This document shows positions 41,766-47,131 of a DNA stretch of 64,000 nucleotides, piece after piece. Below the pieces are notes generated by a model. It did no database searches. It was not told the origin of the DNA and saw nothing but the letters and a program-made list of their open reading frames with translations. Within the stretch, counting starts at the first letter, position 1. Every line of letters starts with the position of its first letter. The stretch comes from Neisseria sp. Its GTDB lineage: Bacteria; Pseudomonadota; Gammaproteobacteria; Burkholderiales; Neisseriaceae. The DNA lies in contig NZ_JAUMUI010000004.1 of the NCBI RefSeq assembly GCF_030530745.1, forward strand, positions 24,159 through 88,158, in the 5' to 3' direction. The position numbers and the translations under genes were made by a program.

Positions 41766-43880
41766 ATGAATTATTTGGAACGCCTCTCTTTCGGGTTCGG
41801 CAAAAAGCTGCCCGTAGTATTGCAAACCGAGGTGGCCGAATGCGGTTTGGCCTGCCTGACTGCGGTTGCGGGCTATCACGGTTATCATTCCGATTTGCGC
41901 ACGATGAGGCAGAAATATTCGCTCTCGCAAAAAGGGCTGACGCTGGCCGATATTGTGCGCTTTGCCAATGATTTGAACCTGACTTCGCGCGCGCTGCGGC
42001 TGGATCTGGACGACCTGCCCAACCTGCGCGCGCCCTGTATCCTGCACTGGGATCTGAACCATTTCGTGGTGCTCAAAGAGGTGGTTAAAGACGGCATCAT
42101 GATTATGGATCCCGCCGTGGGAATGCGCAAAATCAGGCAGGAAGAGGTGTCGCAGAAGTTTACCGGCATTGCGCTGGAATTGTGGCCGAACACGCATTTT
42201 GAAAAAAAAGAAGAAAAGAAAAAAGTTAAAATCCTCACGCTGCTCAAAGGCGTTACCGGCGTTAAGCGTTCGTTGGCGCAGGTGCTGCTGCTGGCATTTG
42301 CGCTGGAAATTTTCGGCCTGGTCAGCCCGTTTCTGATGCAGTGGGTTATCGACCATGTGATTGTGTCGGCAGACCGAAACCTTCTGCTGACGCTGGTTTT
42401 GGGCTTCGGCCTGCTGAAAATACTGGAGCAGCTTACCGGCCTTTTGCAGGCGTGGGTAAACATGCACCTGACCACCACGCTGAATGTGCAGTGGAAAGCC
42501 AACATATTCAAAAGGCTGCTCGAGCTGCCCGCCGATTACTTTTCCAAACGCCATCTGGGCGATGTGATTTCGCGCTTCGGGGCCATCGACAATATTCAGG
42601 AAACCTTAACCTCCACCGCCTTTAAAACCATTTTAAGCGGCATTATGGCCGTGTTTACGCTGGTGCTGATGTTTTATTACAGCTGGCTGTTAACGGTGGT
42701 GGTATTGGTTGCGCTGGCTTTGTATGTCATTATCCGCATCGTTGCCTATTATCCGCTGCGCAACGCCACCGAAGAAAACATTGTGCACGATGCCAAGCAA
42801 GACACCTATTTTATGGAAACGGTGCGCGGAATCCACACGGTCAAGCTGTTTGAAAAAAACGAGCAGCGGCACAGCTCGTGGATGACCTTGTTTGTCGATA
42901 CGGTGAATACCGATTTGACCAAACAGAAGCTCACCAATATTTTCGACTTTGCCAACAAACTCCTGTTCGGCATAGAAGGCATATTGATTATCTATCTGGG
43001 CGCCGACAAGATTCTTGCGGGCGGTTTCACCGTGGGCGCGCTCACGGCATTTTGGGCGTATAAAAACCAGTTTGAAGAACGAGTGGGCGAGCTGGTCGAC
43101 CAATACATCAAAATCCGCATGCTGGGTCTGCACGCCGAGCGTCTGGCCGACATCGTGCTCACCGAAACCGAAACGGAAAAAACCAAAGAAATTTATGTTC
43201 CCGAGGTTGAGGGGGACATCGATATTGCGGTGGAAGACGTATCGTTCCGCTATTCCGACACCGAGCCGTATATTCTGAAAAACATCAGCCTGCATATCAG
43301 GCAGGGCGAATCGGTGGCGTTTACCGGCAGCTCGGGCTGCGGCAAAACCACGCTGATGAACATCTTAATCGGCAACCTTGCGCCCGAATCGGGCAAAGTG
43401 CTGGTAAACGGGCACGACATCCACAAACTTTCACCGCGCTTTATCCGCGGGTTGAGCGGCACGGTAACGCAGGATGATGTGTTGTTTGCCGGCTCGATAG
43501 CGGAAAACATCTGCTTTTTCGACGAAACGCCCGACCAGCAGAAGATTATGCAGTGCGCGGCGATGGCGCAGATACACGAAGACATCATGCAGATGACCAT
43601 GGGCTACGAAACCCTGATAGGCGACATGGGCAACGCCCTGTCGGGCGGACAGAAGCAGCGGATTATTCTGGCGCGCGCGCTTTACCGCGAGCCGAAGATA
43701 CTGTTTCTCGACGAGGCGACAAGCCATTTGGATATGGAAAACGAGCGGGCGATCAACGAAAACCTGAAGCGGTTGAACATTACCAAAATCATGGTTGCGC
43801 ACCGCAGGGAAACGATTGAGTCGGCCGACAGGGTGGTGGATATGGAGGCGCTGGCGCACAGGGAGGAGCAGGAAGGGTAG
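41766..43880 (+). CDS. cvaB: Peptidase-C39-domain ABC transporter, CvaB-like (leader-cleaving microcin exporter) copy 1
   Basis: LQTEVAECGLACL (catalytic Cys), PCILHWDLNHFVVL (His), 6 TM, Walker A GSSGCGKTT, signature LSGGQKQR, Walker B ILFLDEATS; high similarity to E. coli CvaB throughout. Confidence 0.85.
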   Translation: MNYLERLSFGFGKKLPVVLQTEVAECGLACLTAVAGYHGYHSDLRTMRQKYSLSQKGLTLADIVRFANDLNLTSRALRLDLDDLPNLRAPCILHWDLNHFVVLKEVVKDGIMIMDPAVGMRKIRQEEVSQKFTGIALELWPNTHFEKKEEKKKVKILTLLKGVTGVKRSLAQVLLLAFALEIFGLVSPFLMQWVIDHVIVSADRNLLLTLVLGFGLLKILEQLTGLLQAWVNMHLTTTLNVQWKANIFKRLLELPADYFSKRHLGDVISRFGAIDNIQETLTSTAFKTILSGIMAVFTLVLMFYYSWLLTVVVLVALALYVIIRIVAYYPLRNATEENIVHDAKQDTYFMETVRGIHTVKLFEKNEQRHSSWMTLFVDTVNTDLTKQKLTNIFDFANKLLFGIEGILIIYLGADKILAGGFTVGALTAFWAYKNQFEERVGELVDQYIKIRMLGLHAERLADIVLTETETEKTKEIYVPEVEGDIDIAVEDVSFRYSDTEPYILKNISLHIRQGESVAFTGSSGCGKTTLMNILIGNLAPESGKVLVNGHDIHKLSPRFIRGLSGTVTQDDVLFAGSIAENICFFDETPDQQKIMQCAAMAQIHEDIMQMTMGYETLIGDMGNALSGGQKQRIILARALYREPKILFLDEATSHLDMENERAINENLKRLNITKIMVAHRRETIESADRVVDMEALAHREEQEG

Positions 43881-44008
43881 CGGTTTTGCCGAAAAGGCCG
43901 TCTGAAAATTTGCCTTTCAGACGGCTTTTTATCGGCAGTAAAAACGATGTAACTATTCGGCATTAACTATTATTTAAATAATGAATGATTTTGTTAATTT
44001 AATTAATG

Positions 44009-44023
44009 TTTTTTTTTTTTTTT
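44009..44023. repeat. Homopolymeric T15 tract in AT-rich intergenic region
   Basis: aattaatg(t)15gcgaac, seen directly. Confidence 0.7.
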
Positions 44024-44927: not shown

Positions 44928-45016
44928 GTTTGAAAATCGAAAACTTTGTTAAATATATTGTTTTATGCCGTCTGAAAACTTCAGACGGCATTTTTCAGAT
45001 ATATTCCAGAATGTTT

Positions 45017-47131
45017 ATGAAACGTTTGAGCTGTTTGTTTTCCGGCTTTCGTAAAAAACTGCCTGTAGTGCTGCAAACCGAAGTGGCCGAATGCGGCCTG
45101 GCTTGTTTGGCCTCGGTTTTGGGGTATTACGGGCACCGTATCGATTTAAGCATACTCCGGCAGAAGTATGCGCTGTCGCTCAAAGGTGCCAATCTTGCCC
45201 ATATCGCACGCTATGCCCATAGTTTGAACCTGAACACGCGCGCGCTGCGCTTGGATCTGGGCGATCTGCCCAACCTGCGCACACCCTGTATCCTGCACTG
45301 GGATTTGAATCATTTTGTGGTATTGCGTTCCGTCGGCATAAATTCCATAACGGTAATGGATCCGGCTTCGGGGTTGCTGAAAGTTGAAATGAAAGAGGTG
45401 TCGCGCAGGTTTACGGGTGTGGCTTTGGAATTGTGGCCGGATAAAAACTTTGAGAAAAAGGAAGAAAGAAACAAGGTTAAAGTTCTGCTGCTGCTTAAAG
45501 ATGCAGTAGGCATTAAGCGTTCGCTGATGCAGATACTGCTGCTGGCGTTTGCGCTGGAAATTTTCGGCCTGACTTCTCCGTTTCTGATGCAGTGGGTTAT
45601 CGATCATGTGGTGGTAACGGCAGACCGTAATCTGCTGCTTATGCTGGTTTTGGGTTTCGGCATGCTGCTGGTTGTGCGGCAGTTGATCGGGCTGTTGCAG
45701 TCGTGGGTGGGAATGCATTTTGCCACTACCCTGAATGCACAGTGGAAAGCCAATATATTTGCAAAAATGCTTGATTTGCCTGCCTCTTATTTTTTCAAAC
45801 GCCACTTGGGCGATGTGGTTTCGCGCTTCGGTGCCATCGACACTATTCAGAAAACACTGACTTCTGCGTTTTTTAAAGTTGTTTTAAACGGCATTATGGC
45901 CGTATTCACCTTTTGGCTGATGATGCTTTACAGCGCGGATCTTTCAATGATTGTGGCCGTCGCGCTGATTCTGTATATCCTGATCCGTACGGCAGCCTAT
46001 TATCCGTTACGGAATACCACCGAGAAAAATATCATTAATACGGCGAAACAAAGCTCTTATTTTATCGAAACAATGCGCGGAATCGGCACGGTGAAATTAT
46101 TCGATAAAACTCCGCAGAGGTTTAATGTATGGATAAGCCTGTTTGTGAACACGGTCAACACGGGGCTGGCGGCACAGAAATTATCGGTTTTATTTAGTTT
46201 TGCCAATTCGTTGATTTTCGGCATAGAAGGCATACTGATCATTTATCTGGGCGCCGACAAGATTCTTGCGGGCGGTTTCACCGTGGGCGCGCTCACGGCA
46301 TTTTGGGCGTATAAAAACCAGTTTGAAGAACGAGTGGGCGAGCTGGTCGACCAATACATCAAAATCCGCATGCTGGGTCTGCACGCCGAGCGTCTGGCCG
46401 ACATCGTGCTCACCGAAACCGAAACGGAAAAAACCAAAGAAATTTATGTTCCCGAGGTTGAGGGGGACATCGATATTGCGGTGGAAGACGTATCGTTCCG
46501 CTATTCCGACACCGAGCCGTATATTCTGAAAAACATCAGCCTGCATATCAGGCAGGGCGAATCGGTGGCGTTTACCGGCAGCTCGGGCTGCGGCAAAACC
46601 ACGCTGATGAACATCTTAATCGGCAACCTTGCGCCCGAATCGGGCAAAGTGCTGGTAAACGGGCACGACATCCACAAACTTTCACCGCGCTTTATCCGCG
46701 GGTTGAGCGGCACGGTAACGCAGGATGATGTGTTGTTTGCCGGCTCGATAGCGGAAAACATCTGCTTTTTCGACGAAACGCCCGACCAGCAGAAGATTAT
46801 GCAGTGCGCGGCGATGGCGCAGATACACGAAGACATCATGCAGATGACCATGGGCTACGAAACCCTGATAGGCGACATGGGCAACGCCCTGTCGGGCGGA
46901 CAGAAGCAGCGGATTATTCTGGCGCGCGCGCTTTACCGCGAGCCGAAGATACTGTTTCTCGACGAGGCGACAAGCCATTTGGATATGGAAAACGAGCGGG
47001 CGATCAACGAAAACCTGAAGCGGTTGAACATTACCAAAATCATGGTTGCGCACCGCAGGGAAACGATTGAGTCGGCCGACAGGGTGGTGGATATGGAGGC
47101 GCTGGCGCACAGGGAGGGTCAGGAAGGGTAG
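45017..47131 (+). CDS. cvaB: Peptidase-C39-domain ABC transporter, CvaB-like copy 2 (N-terminal two-thirds diverged, C-terminal ~290 aa identical to copy 1)
   Basis: LQTEVAECGLACLASV, PCILHWDLNHFVVL; nucleotides ~46247-47116 identical to ~42996-43865 apart from one codon. Confidence 0.85.
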   Translation: MKRLSCLFSGFRKKLPVVLQTEVAECGLACLASVLGYYGHRIDLSILRQKYALSLKGANLAHIARYAHSLNLNTRALRLDLGDLPNLRTPCILHWDLNHFVVLRSVGINSITVMDPASGLLKVEMKEVSRRFTGVALELWPDKNFEKKEERNKVKVLLLLKDAVGIKRSLMQILLLAFALEIFGLTSPFLMQWVIDHVVVTADRNLLLMLVLGFGMLLVVRQLIGLLQSWVGMHFATTLNAQWKANIFAKMLDLPASYFFKRHLGDVVSRFGAIDTIQKTLTSAFFKVVLNGIMAVFTFWLMMLYSADLSMIVAVALILYILIRTAAYYPLRNTTEKNIINTAKQSSYFIETMRGIGTVKLFDKTPQRFNVWISLFVNTVNTGLAAQKLSVLFSFANSLIFGIEGILIIYLGADKILAGGFTVGALTAFWAYKNQFEERVGELVDQYIKIRMLGLHAERLADIVLTETETEKTKEIYVPEVEGDIDIAVEDVSFRYSDTEPYILKNISLHIRQGESVAFTGSSGCGKTTLMNILIGNLAPESGKVLVNGHDIHKLSPRFIRGLSGTVTQDDVLFAGSIAENICFFDETPDQQKIMQCAAMAQIHEDIMQMTMGYETLIGDMGNALSGGQKQRIILARALYREPKILFLDEATSHLDMENERAINENLKRLNITKIMVAHRRETIESADRVVDMEALAHREGQEG

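What the first reader, a model, noticed from the sequence alone, without database searches (positions are those of the whole stretch)
41766..47131. Two CvaB-like exporters whose 3' ~870 bp are nucleotide-identical while the peptidase/TM halves are diverged
Coordinates ~42996-43865 and ~46247-47116 are identical except for one codon near the end (EEQEG vs EGQEG). The ORF track shows identical antisense ORFs in both, confirming this. The 5' two-thirds (C39 domain and first TM helices) are only ~70% identical. This indicates recent gene conversion, or a mosaic origin with the NBDs homogenised. The N-terminal peptidase/TMD specificity regions may be kept distinct to handle different leader or cargo families. 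The second exporter has no cognate CvaA and presumably shares the one at 39975.
Basis: seen in the sequence. Interest (0 to 1): 0.6.

Follow-up and report, generated by a model that had tools for sequence, protein, structure and literature searches.

The report
Mosaic second bacteriocin exporter in Neisseria
A commensal Neisseria bacteriocin-secretion locus carries a second, add-on peptide exporter whose front two-thirds are from a distant lineage, while its last 874 bases are a fresh copy of the neighbouring exporter's ATPase end: a real but fairly ordinary recombination mosaic.

Summary
Window 42993-43866 and 46244-47117 are 874/874 nt identical (offset 3251). The 1227 nt before them are 70.6% nt / 67.5% aa identical, with dS about 1.1. 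Both genes are intact C39-peptidase ABC exporters (PCATs).

The shared block covers the TM5-TM6 loop, TM6 and the nucleotide-binding domain (NBD). It is native to ABC1: in three orthologous loci it diverges in step with ABC1's 5' part. ABC2's 5' part is an orphan lineage, with a best database relative at 71%.

ABC2 sits in a 3251-bp add-on unit with a 72-aa two-helix immunity-like ORF and a 117-aa double-glycine microcin-like precursor. A 95%-identical sister strain (L081) lacks exactly this unit.

Independent read-derived contigs from the same strain confirm three of the four repeat junctions. They also carry two synonymous SNPs inside the repeat, so true identity may be 872/874, collapsed by the assemblers.

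The most likely cause is recent ABC1-to-ABC2 gene conversion, or a duplicative integration that used ABC1's 3' end. The window holds one HlyD-type adaptor and one TolC-like gene, so sharing is plausible. Interest is modest.

The parts
32852..34189 (-). TolC-like outer-membrane factor (OEP) of the secretion locus
   Evidence: Pfam PF02321 OEP, E 1.8e-61. The same position and orientation occur in N. oralis-type loci L082-L086.
34586..39648 (+). Array of 16 small genes encoding double-glycine-leader peptides (bacteriocin/microcin-like cargo)
   Evidence: Leaders of the type MKELNQFELEQVSGG were read directly. One peptide (38301-38465) passes the NCBIfam TIGR03949 class IIb bacteriocin cutoff.
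39975..41267 (+). HlyD/CvaA-type membrane-fusion adaptor; the only one in the window
   Evidence: Pfam HlyD_3 and HlyD_D23. The closest NCBIfam model is TIGR01843 type_I_hlyD, 123 bits, below its 208.65 cutoff. The start codon was read.
41478..41645 (+). 55-aa hydrophobic ORF between adaptor and ABC1 (immunity-like; function inferred)
   Evidence: Sequence read. No Pfam hit.
41766..43880 (+). ABC1: resident peptidase-containing ABC exporter (PCAT), 704 aa
   Evidence: Pfam C39 2.4e-36, ABC_membrane 2.1e-35, ABC_tran 1.4e-32. Full-length match to solved PCAT1 4ry2, E 2.7e-93. Orthologs at 91-99% aa.
42993..43866 (+). Repeat copy 1 (R): end of TM5, TM5-6 loop, TM6, linker and NBD of ABC1; inferred donor
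   Evidence: 874-nt exact run. It diverges in step with ABC1's 5' part in L081, L001 and L082. GC3 is 73.5%, like HlyD at 74%.
43867..43932 (+). Tail 1: last codons, stop codon and DUS-hairpin terminator of ABC1; older homology layer, 87.9% to tail 2
   Evidence: (D8).
43933..44352 (+). AT-rich spacer (28.8% GC) with a T15 tract at 44009-44023
44353..44571 (+). 72-aa ORF with two hydrophobic helices; putative immunity protein (inferred); not annotated at NCBI
   Evidence: Sequence read. GC3 27%. NCBI protein ids for ABC1, the 117-aa peptide and ABC2 are consecutive. No family hit.
44574..44927 (+). 117-aa double-glycine-leader precursor; mature part 102 aa, 9.6 kDa, Gly/Ala-rich (class II microcin-like)
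   Evidence: Orphan among 5.8 billion protein clusters.
44967..44989 (+). DUS inverted-repeat hairpin followed by a T-run, between the peptide gene and ABC2
   Evidence: (I1).
45017..47131 (+). ABC2: mosaic PCAT, 704 aa. Codons 1-409 are an orphan lineage; codons 410-704 are a copy of ABC1.
   Evidence: Pfam C39 1.1e-33, ABC_membrane 6.8e-28, ABC_tran 1.5e-32. Best relative of the N-terminal 409 aa is 71%. Catalytic and ATPase motifs intact.
46244..47117 (+). Repeat copy 2 (R): inferred acceptor tract
   Evidence: GC3 jumps from 57% (ABC2 5' part) to 73.5% at the junction.
47118..47185 (+). Tail 2: EGQEG codons, stop codon and DUS-hairpin terminator. The DNA beyond it is what follows the single ABC1 in sister strain L081.

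Best explanation
The locus is a tripartite double-glycine-peptide (class II microcin-type) secretion system of a commensal Neisseria. It comprises a TolC-like OEP, 16 cargo genes, one HlyD-type adaptor and the resident exporter ABC1. Immediately downstream lies a 3251-bp add-on unit: an AT-rich spacer, a 72-aa immunity-like ORF, a 117-aa GG-leader microcin-like gene and a second exporter, ABC2. ABC2 is a mosaic. Its C39 peptidase and TM1-TM5 come from a deeply diverged, otherwise unseen lineage. From the periplasmic end of TM5 through TM6 and the whole ATPase domain it carries ABC1's own sequence. The most likely cause is a recent non-reciprocal homologous exchange (gene conversion) within the chromosome, with ABC1 as donor and ABC2 as acceptor. 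This was laid over an older, now about 12% diverged, layer of ABC1-type homology in the 3' tail. Shown: the identity tract, its sharp borders, ABC1 as the origin of the tract, intact motifs in both genes, and the presence/absence polymorphism of the unit. Inferred: the direction and mechanism of exchange; that both exporters work with the single adaptor and OEP; that they draw on an overlapping substrate pool because the leaders are of one type; and that the 874-bp direct repeats make the cassette prone to RecA-mediated loss, which would give the single-exporter form seen in L081.
For: The tract is 874 nt identical while the 5' part is 70.6% identical with dS 1.10. The tract is ABC1-native. 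Window ABC1 versus L081, L001 and L082 is 97.9/86.0/80.7% in the 5' part and 96.7/86.4/78.9% in R; ABC2's 5' part is only 70.4/67.6/65.8% to the same genes. About 20 ABC1-type proteins show the same picture: N-terminus 91-99%, C-terminus 90-98%. GC3 is 68% in ABC1's 5' part, 73.5% in R and 74% in HlyD, against 57% in ABC2's 5' part and 24-27% in the cassette's small genes. The non-coding tail is 87.9% identical, far above the 70.6% of the coding 5' part, which points to an older exchange layer. Sister strain L081 has ABC1 followed directly by the DNA that follows ABC2 in the window. Logan contigs from run SRR24915806, which match the window exactly elsewhere (L089 100% over 1795 nt), end or start exactly at the repeat border. 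They show the junctions ABC1-5'>R, R>tail1>cassette and ABC2-5'>R. None of 90 fetched loci, mostly distant relatives, has a second PCAT in the DNA held (up to ±10 kb), so single is the usual state. Both genes keep the Q/C/H/D peptidase motifs and the Walker A, signature and Walker B motifs.
Against: No ABC2 allele with a native NBD exists in any database searched. The pre-conversion state is therefore unobserved, and conversion cannot be told apart from a duplicative origin. Conversion between sequences about 70% identical is hard to initiate. Only one genome carries the cassette, so recurrence (concerted evolution) rests on a 66-nt tail alone. The source assembly is probably short-read; this is inferred from the accession series and from Logan contigs of k-mer-graph form, and was not verified. 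Exact identity may be partly an assembler effect. The R>tail2 junction was not recovered independently.
Confidence: 0.55

Rival explanations
1. Duplicative integration. ABC2 never had its own 3' end in this genome. Incoming DNA carried the spacer, the immunity and microcin genes and a foreign PCAT. It recombined with ABC1's 3' region at both ends in swapped order (a bridging or unequal-crossover event). This duplicated ABC1's last 874+ bp and created the chimera in one step.
For: The repeat copies would be identical at birth, which fits 874/874. The single-exporter form in L081 and in all other relatives would then be the ancestral state. The cassette is compositionally foreign and has no relatives. 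Neisseria is naturally transformable, and DUS hairpins bracket each module.
Against: The two tails differ from the first base after the tract (87.9% over 66 nt, plus a 2-nt indel). The left junction would therefore have to lie exactly at 43867, and tail 1 would have to come from a donor that already carried an ABC1-type 3' end upstream of the cassette. That only moves the problem to the donor. No intermediate or donor has been found.
Confidence: 0.27
2. Assembly artefact. Either only one copy is real, or the identity comes from repeat or bubble collapse in a short-read (possibly metagenomic) assembly.
For: Logan contig L088 is a 3251+30-nt cycle. The repeat appears once in that graph, and any assembler must thread it twice. 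L088 carries two SNPs (43754, 43760) inside the repeat and none in the other 2407 nt, while L089 has none in 1795 nt. This suggests two slightly different copies merged into one consensus. Only one assembly holds ABC2.
Against: The junctions ABC1-5'>R (L090), ABC2-5'>R and R>tail1>cassette (L088) all exist in read-derived contigs. Any linear genome containing them needs R twice. Both ORFs are in frame and the two tails differ. A co-resident L081-like strain would add 29 differences in R, not 2. At worst the identity falls to 872/874.
Confidence: 0.06
3. Selection-maintained homogenisation. The TM6+NBD block is kept identical by repeated conversion because both exporters must dock the same adaptor/OEP or share regulation, while the peptidase and TM1-5 stay different for different cargo.
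For: There is one adaptor and one OEP in the locus. There are two homology layers, 100% in the tract and 88% in the tail. The 5' part is under purifying selection, dN/dS 0.22. The cassette cargo is much larger than the array peptides.
Against: The leaders are of one class (M/L/L/V), so partitioning by leader is not indicated (PMC7018657). Only one genome is available, so there is no evidence that the identity persists over time. The block is mostly cytoplasmic NBD plus TM6, and I have no evidence that it is the surface contacting the adaptor (own reasoning, not tested).
Confidence: 0.1
4. Ordinary conservation. The NBD is identical simply because ATPase domains evolve slowly.
For: NBDs are the most conserved part of ABC proteins (general knowledge).
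Against: dS in the tract is 0.003 against 1.10 upstream. In PCAT pairs with about 67% N-terminal identity, the C-terminal identity is 62-69%. The tract also includes TM6 and a sharp border.
Confidence: 0.01

Closest known systems
Peptidase-containing ABC transporters of class II microcin / GG-bacteriocin systems (E. coli CvaB with CvaA and TolC; C. thermocellum PCAT1, PDB 4ry2; S. pneumoniae ComA, PDB 8hf7)
   Same: The architecture is the same: C39 peptidase, six-helix exporter membrane domain, NBD. The match to PCAT1 is full length (E 2.7e-93). GG-leader cargo genes, an HlyD-type adaptor and a TolC-like gene lie next to the exporters.
   Different: Both proteins fall below every curated NCBIfam cutoff; for example TIGR01193 scores 351 and 337 bits against a cutoff of 524. 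Two exporters sit in tandem sharing one adaptor, and one of them is a domain-level mosaic.
Co-resident PCAT paralogs of Streptococcus pneumoniae (ComAB, BlpAB, RtgAB)
   Same: Several PCATs in one naturally competent mucosal bacterium, with shared or partitioned GG-peptide pools decided by leader residues -15/-12/-7/-4 (PMC6016807, PMC7018657). The bacteriocin/immunity content is highly variable.
   Different: Those transporters lie in separate loci, each with its own accessory protein. The papers I read do not report them sharing a nucleotide-identical 3' block. Here the leaders predict a shared pool.
Segmental gene conversion between paralogs (own knowledge: Neisseria pilE/pilS and opa genes; tufA/tufB in enterobacteria)
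   Same: A sharply bounded tract of identity inside otherwise diverged paralogs, phylogenetic incongruence between tract and flanks, and an organism with very active RecA-dependent recombination.
   Different: There is no evidence of a programmed or recurrent system. The conserved part is the 3' engine and the variable part is the 5' specificity module. Only one event (perhaps two) can be inferred.
nap island of N. gonorrhoeae / N. meningitidis (PMC11798529)
   Same: Neisseria locus with GG-motif cationic peptides and a C39 peptidase.
   Different: It is a different locus and machinery (NapP peptidase plus a FapF-like channel, and an autolysis function). It is absent from most commensals and is not the OEP-adaptor-PCAT system seen here.

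Membership tests
Peptidase-containing ABC transporter (PCAT; CvaB/ComA/PCAT1 type) | N-terminal C39 peptidase domain with catalytic Cys, His and Asp and the oxyanion Gln | tested here: met
   PF03412 at E 2.4e-36 (ABC1) and 1.1e-33 (ABC2), both far above the gathering score. Both have QTEVAECGLACL, NHFVVL and MDPA. Assigning catalytic roles to these residues rests on knowledge of the family.
Peptidase-containing ABC transporter (PCAT; CvaB/ComA/PCAT1 type) | ABC exporter membrane domain plus NBD with Walker A, signature and Walker B motifs, in one polypeptide | tested here: met
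   PF00664 and PF00005 both above cutoff. GSSGCGKT at 521, LSGGQ at 625 and ILFLDE at 645 in both proteins. ABC1 aligns over residues 11-691 with PCAT1 4ry2.
Peptidase-containing ABC transporter (PCAT; CvaB/ComA/PCAT1 type) | Adjacent genes for double-glycine-leader substrates | tested here: met
   16 GG-leader genes upstream and one directly upstream of ABC2.
Peptidase-containing ABC transporter (PCAT; CvaB/ComA/PCAT1 type) | Leader cleavage and ATP-driven export shown | not testable with these tools
   Needs secretion and cleavage assays.
NCBIfam curated PCAT families (TIGR03796 NHLM_micro_ABC1, TIGR01193 bacteriocin_ABC, TIGR01846 HlyB) | Whole-protein score at or above the curated cutoff | tested here: not met
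   Best scores are 493 and 475 bits against 853.3 (TIGR03796), 351 and 337 against 523.85 (TIGR01193), and 444 and 409 against 725.55 (TIGR01846). 'CvaB-like' therefore describes the architecture, not membership of a curated family.
Tripartite ABC-adaptor-OEP secretion system (type I / microcin V type) | HlyD/CvaA-family adaptor and TolC-family outer-membrane factor encoded with the ABC | tested here: met
   HlyD_3 and HlyD_D23 at 39975-41267. OEP at 32852-34189.
Tripartite ABC-adaptor-OEP secretion system (type I / microcin V type) | A dedicated adaptor for the second exporter | tested here: not met
   None of the 20 larger ORFs scanned in the window other than 39894-41267 has an HlyD domain. 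The rest of the genome is unseen.
Class II microcin (for the 117-aa cassette peptide) | GG-leader precursor, mature part under 10 kDa, next to an immunity gene and a PCAT/adaptor | tested here: met
   15-aa leader ending SGG; mature part 102 aa, 9.6 kDa, 22% Ala, 21% Gly. The 72-aa two-helix ORF ends 2 nt upstream. The immunity role is inferred.
Class II microcin (for the 117-aa cassette peptide) | Antibacterial activity; sequence relation to known microcins | tested here: inconclusive
   No Pfam or NCBIfam hit and no homolog at E<=1e-3 in 5.8 billion clusters. Only weak low-complexity similarity (about 32%) to Gly-rich peptides in L002. Activity is not testable here.
Gene conversion between paralogs | Sharply bounded identity tract within diverged paralogs, including synonymous sites | tested here: met
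   874/874 against 70.6%; dS 0.003 against 1.10.
Gene conversion between paralogs | Phylogenetic incongruence that identifies a donor | tested here: met
   The tract groups with ABC1 orthologs at the same distances as ABC1's 5' part. ABC1/ABC2 is the top outlier pair among 1830 pairs.
Gene conversion between paralogs | Acceptor's pre-conversion sequence observed (which rules out a chimeric birth) | tested here: not met
   No ABC2-type 5' half with another 3' end was found in GTDB genomes or in the 5.8-billion-cluster protein set.

The most novel reading that the evidence does not exclude
The conserved TM6+NBD 'engine' of these exporters acts as portable homology. By natural transformation and RecA, whole front-end cassettes (immunity gene, microcin gene, C39+TM1-5 specificity module) are captured next to, or swapped onto, a resident engine, and are lost again by repeat-mediated deletion. 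PCAT specificity would then evolve modularly in Neisseriaceae. The immunity/toxin pair between the repeats would penalise deletion segregants. Hints are a second clean PCAT chimera (P0014: N. oralis-type to about residue 350, then 100% identical to another lineage's C-terminus) and the exact presence/absence polymorphism in L081.
Probability: 0.18. Interest if true: 0.55.

Novelty: new member of a known kind. Interest (0 to 1): 0.32.

Why it matters
The finding gives a clean natural example of a chimeric peptide exporter. The ATPase plus last transmembrane helix of one PCAT is joined, apparently functionally, to the peptidase and first five helices of another that is only 67% identical. This is a natural domain-swap experiment. 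It is useful for asking which parts of a PCAT set substrate choice and adaptor compatibility, and for engineering secretion systems. It also documents an uncharacterised, very cargo-rich GG-peptide secretion locus in a commensal Neisseria, with an orphan microcin-like gene. The 874-bp direct repeats predict an unstable, strain-variable cassette. It does not reveal a new kind of mechanism.

Tried and rejected
1. I looked for an ABC2-type gene with its own NBD. The GTDB genome scan gave a best hit of 67%. The 5.8-billion-cluster protein search gave a best of 71% apart from ABC2 itself. No such gene was found.
2. I looked for relatives of the 117-aa peptide and found only itself. The cassette DNA has no match in the other loci or in the rest of the window apart from DUS hairpins.
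3. I searched plasmids with the cassette DNA. Only distant PCAT-gene matches appeared, at 65-72% over part of the query, so there is no sign of plasmid origin.
4. I tried to recover the read-derived contig for the fourth junction (R>tail2) through small ORFs at 47255-47455 and 47347-47586. Neither is on record. The exact ABC2 protein and the 55-aa ORF at 41478-41645 were also not on record.
5. Literature: the published Neisseria 'nap' bacteriocin-like island is a different locus. Searches for gene conversion between bacteriocin ABC transporters or for chimeric PCATs found no direct precedent.
6. I rejected 'conserved NBD' and chance as explanations on synonymous-site identity.
7. I rejected a co-assembled L081-like strain as the source of the two SNPs, because it would add 29 differences in R, not 2.

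Full report
**Setting.** The window is Neisseria DNA. The 10-mer DNA uptake sequence GCCGTCTGAA occurs 80 times in 64 kb, against 0.17 expected. NCBI names the proteins only as 'Neisseria sp.'. The finding lies in a peptide-secretion locus. The locus comprises:
- a TolC-like OEP gene (32852-34189, minus strand);
- 16 small genes with double-glycine leaders (34586-39648);
- one HlyD/CvaA-type adaptor (39975-41267);
- small hydrophobic ORFs;
- two 704-aa peptidase-containing ABC exporters, ABC1 (41766-43880) and ABC2 (45017-47131).

Both exporters have C39, ABC_membrane and ABC_tran domains far above the Pfam thresholds. ABC1 aligns over its full length with solved PCAT1, HlyB and ComA.

At offset 3251 there is one perfect run, 42993-43866 = 46244-47117 (874 nt).
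- It is followed by a two-base change (EEQEG to EGQEG), the stop codon, a 2-nt indel and a DUS-hairpin terminator at 87.9% over 66 nt.
- Similarity stops abruptly after that.
- Upstream, codons 1-409 are 70.6% nt and 67.5% aa identical. dS is 1.10 and dN/dS is 0.22, against dS 0.003 in the shared block.
- Alignment to P-glycoprotein places the breakpoint (IIY|LGADKIL) at the outer end of TM5. The shared block is therefore the TM5-6 loop, TM6, the linker and the NBD, not simply 'the NBD'.
- ABC2's real start is almost certainly ATG 45017, not TTG 44930. The longer ORF runs through a DUS hairpin, and the NCBI model is 704 aa.

**The shared block belongs to ABC1.**
- About twenty database proteins (N. 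dentiae, N. oralis and unnamed Neisseria) are 91-99% identical to ABC1's N-terminal 409 aa and 90-98% identical to the shared C-terminal block.
- At the DNA level, ABC1 versus L081, L001 and L082 is 97.9/86.0/80.7% in the 5' part and 96.7/86.4/78.9% in the block. ABC2's 5' part is 70.4/67.6/65.8% to the same genes.
- ABC2's N-terminal part is an orphan. Apart from itself, the best hit among 5.8 billion protein clusters is 71%, and those hits are closer to ABC1 than to ABC2.
- Composition agrees. GC3 is 68% in ABC1's 5' part, 73.5% in the block and 74% in the adaptor, but 57% in ABC2's 5' part.
- In a regression of C-terminal on N-terminal identity over 1830 pairs of 61 Neisseriaceae PCATs, ABC1/ABC2 is the largest outlier (+34 points, sd 5.2).

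**ABC2 is part of an add-on cassette.** Between the two exporters lie:
- a 28.8%-GC spacer with a T15 run;
- a 72-aa ORF with two hydrophobic helices (GC3 27%);
- a 117-aa gene starting 2 nt after it, with leader MFELEIRDLEVVSGG and a 102-aa, 9.6-kDa, Gly/Ala-rich mature part (GC3 24%).

NCBI appears not to annotate the 72-aa ORF, because the protein ids for ABC1, the 117-aa peptide and ABC2 are consecutive. The peptide has no detectable homolog, and the cassette DNA matches nothing else fetched.

A Logan contig from another run (L081) is about 95% identical in the flanks. It has a single ABC1 followed directly by the DNA that follows ABC2 in the window. The 3251-bp unit is thus a presence/absence polymorphism bounded exactly by the repeat. 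Single exporters are the rule elsewhere: none of 90 fetched loci, mostly distant relatives, has a second PCAT in the DNA held (up to ±10 kb).

**Assembly risk.** Read-derived Logan contigs of run SRR24915806 come from the same strain, since L089 equals window 47657-49451 at 100%.
- L090 runs from the adaptor through ABC1's 5' part and stops exactly 30 nt into the repeat.
- L088 equals window 42993-46273. It is 3281 = 3251+30 nt long and its first and last 30 nt are the same, which is the cycle expected from a tandem repeat in a k=31 graph.
- Three of the four junctions are therefore independently seen, and a linear genome containing them needs the repeat twice. The fourth junction (R>tail2) could not be retrieved.
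- L088 differs from the window at only two positions, 43754 and 43760. Both are synonymous, both lie inside the repeat, and both match the state in L081's ABC1.
- A co-resident L081-like strain would add 29 differences. The simplest reading is that the two real copies differ at these two sites and each assembler collapsed the bubble. Identity would then be 872/874. This does not change the conclusion.

**Mechanism.** I favour a recent non-reciprocal exchange from ABC1 to ABC2 (0.55). The non-coding tail is 88% identical while the coding 5' part is 70.6% identical. The tail must therefore belong to a younger homology layer than the 5' part and an older one than the tract, which implies at least two exchange events.

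The main rival (0.27) is a duplicative integration that created the chimera when the cassette arrived, with ABC1's 3' end as homology. It explains the perfect identity and the L081 state. However, it requires the junction to lie exactly at 43867 and a donor that already had an ABC1-type tail. The two models cannot be separated without an ABC2 allele carrying a native 3' end, and none exists in the databases. Artefact gets 0.06. Plain conservation is excluded by the synonymous-site identity.

**Function.** Both exporters keep the peptidase Q/C/H/D motifs and the ATPase motifs, and ABC2's 5' part shows purifying selection, so both are probably active. Only one adaptor and one OEP are encoded here, so sharing is plausible but untested.

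The cassette leader has M/L/L/V at -15/-12/-7/-4, which is the modal pattern of the array. These are the positions that decide transporter choice between ComAB/BlpAB and RtgAB in pneumococcus (PMC7018657). ComAB and BlpAB share one substrate pool (PMC6016807). A shared pool is the better prediction here; cargo size is the remaining difference.

The 874-bp direct repeats should allow RecA-mediated loss of the cassette, giving the L081 form. A toxin/immunity pair between the repeats could penalise such segregants. Both of these points are inference.

**Comparison and novelty.** By architecture these are PCATs of the CvaB/PCAT1/ComA kind in a CvaA/TolC-type tripartite system. They fall below all curated NCBIfam cutoffs, so 'CvaB-like' is a description, not a membership claim. 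The published Neisseria nap island is a different system. I found no report of tandem PCATs sharing a nucleotide-identical 3' block. Even so, segmental gene conversion and mosaic genes are routine in Neisseria. I rate the finding a new member of a known kind, with interest 0.32.

The boldest reading still open is that the engine block serves as a landing pad for modular capture and loss of specificity cassettes. It is hinted at by a second clean chimera, P0014, but rests on two cases, one of them from a metagenome scaffold (probability 0.18).

Noticed in passing
window 34586-39648: An unusually large array of 16 double-glycine-leader peptide genes with very diverse mature parts: Pro/Trp-rich, cationic and Gly-rich. 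One (38301-38465) passes the NCBIfam class IIb lactobin A/cerein 7B cutoff. The last genes lie in repeated modules of about 864 bp (38008/38872/39709), each ending in a DUS hairpin.
   Followed up: partly
window 43754 and 43760 (= 47005 and 47011); L088 762 and 768: The read-derived Logan contig of the same strain has T and G where the window has C and A in both repeat copies. Both changes are synonymous and match the ABC1 of strain L081. The two copies probably differ here and were collapsed by the assemblers. Single reads could phase this, because the site is 113 nt from the repeat's end.
   Followed up: partly
window 44009-44023: A T15 homopolymer in the 29%-GC spacer about 330 nt upstream of the immunity-like and microcin-like gene pair. 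It could be a slippage-prone promoter element. The Logan contig has the same length.
   Followed up: no
window 44353-44571: A 72-aa ORF with two hydrophobic helices, ending 2 nt before the 117-aa peptide gene. It appears unannotated at NCBI, because the protein ids of ABC1, the peptide and ABC2 are consecutive. It is a likely immunity gene.
   Followed up: partly
L087 647-2740 (protein P0014): A second clean PCAT chimera in an oral metagenome scaffold. It is 95% identical to the N. oralis-type exporter up to about residue 350, then 100% identical to the C-terminus of a different lineage (P0043). It is flanked by an adaptor gene on both sides. It is either a real recombinant or a metagenome assembly chimera.
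   Followed up: partly
window 41277-41645: Small hydrophobic ORFs lie between the adaptor and ABC1. One seems split by a frameshift at an A7 run (41339-41345). The other is an intact 55-aa two-helix ORF (41478-41645). They are immunity-like, and N. oralis-type loci lack them because there the adaptor and exporter genes overlap.
   Followed up: no
window 49025-54550: An 1841-aa RTX-repeat protein (HemolysinCabind, with a weak reprolysin-like metalloprotease match) lies 1.9 kb downstream of ABC2, beyond a MarR regulator and a flavin reductase on the other strand. No dedicated type I secretion ABC or adaptor was seen next to it in the ORFs scanned.
   Followed up: no
window 47258-47388: A 131-bp segment just downstream of ABC2's terminator is absent from sister strain L081. 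It is a small indel of unknown nature.
   Followed up: no
window 41708-41730, 43897-43925, 44967-44989, 47150-47178: Every module of the locus is bracketed by an inverted pair of DNA uptake sequences that forms a terminator-like hairpin. This includes one about 30 nt upstream of each exporter's start codon. They are potential transcription attenuators and also short portable homologies.
   Followed up: no
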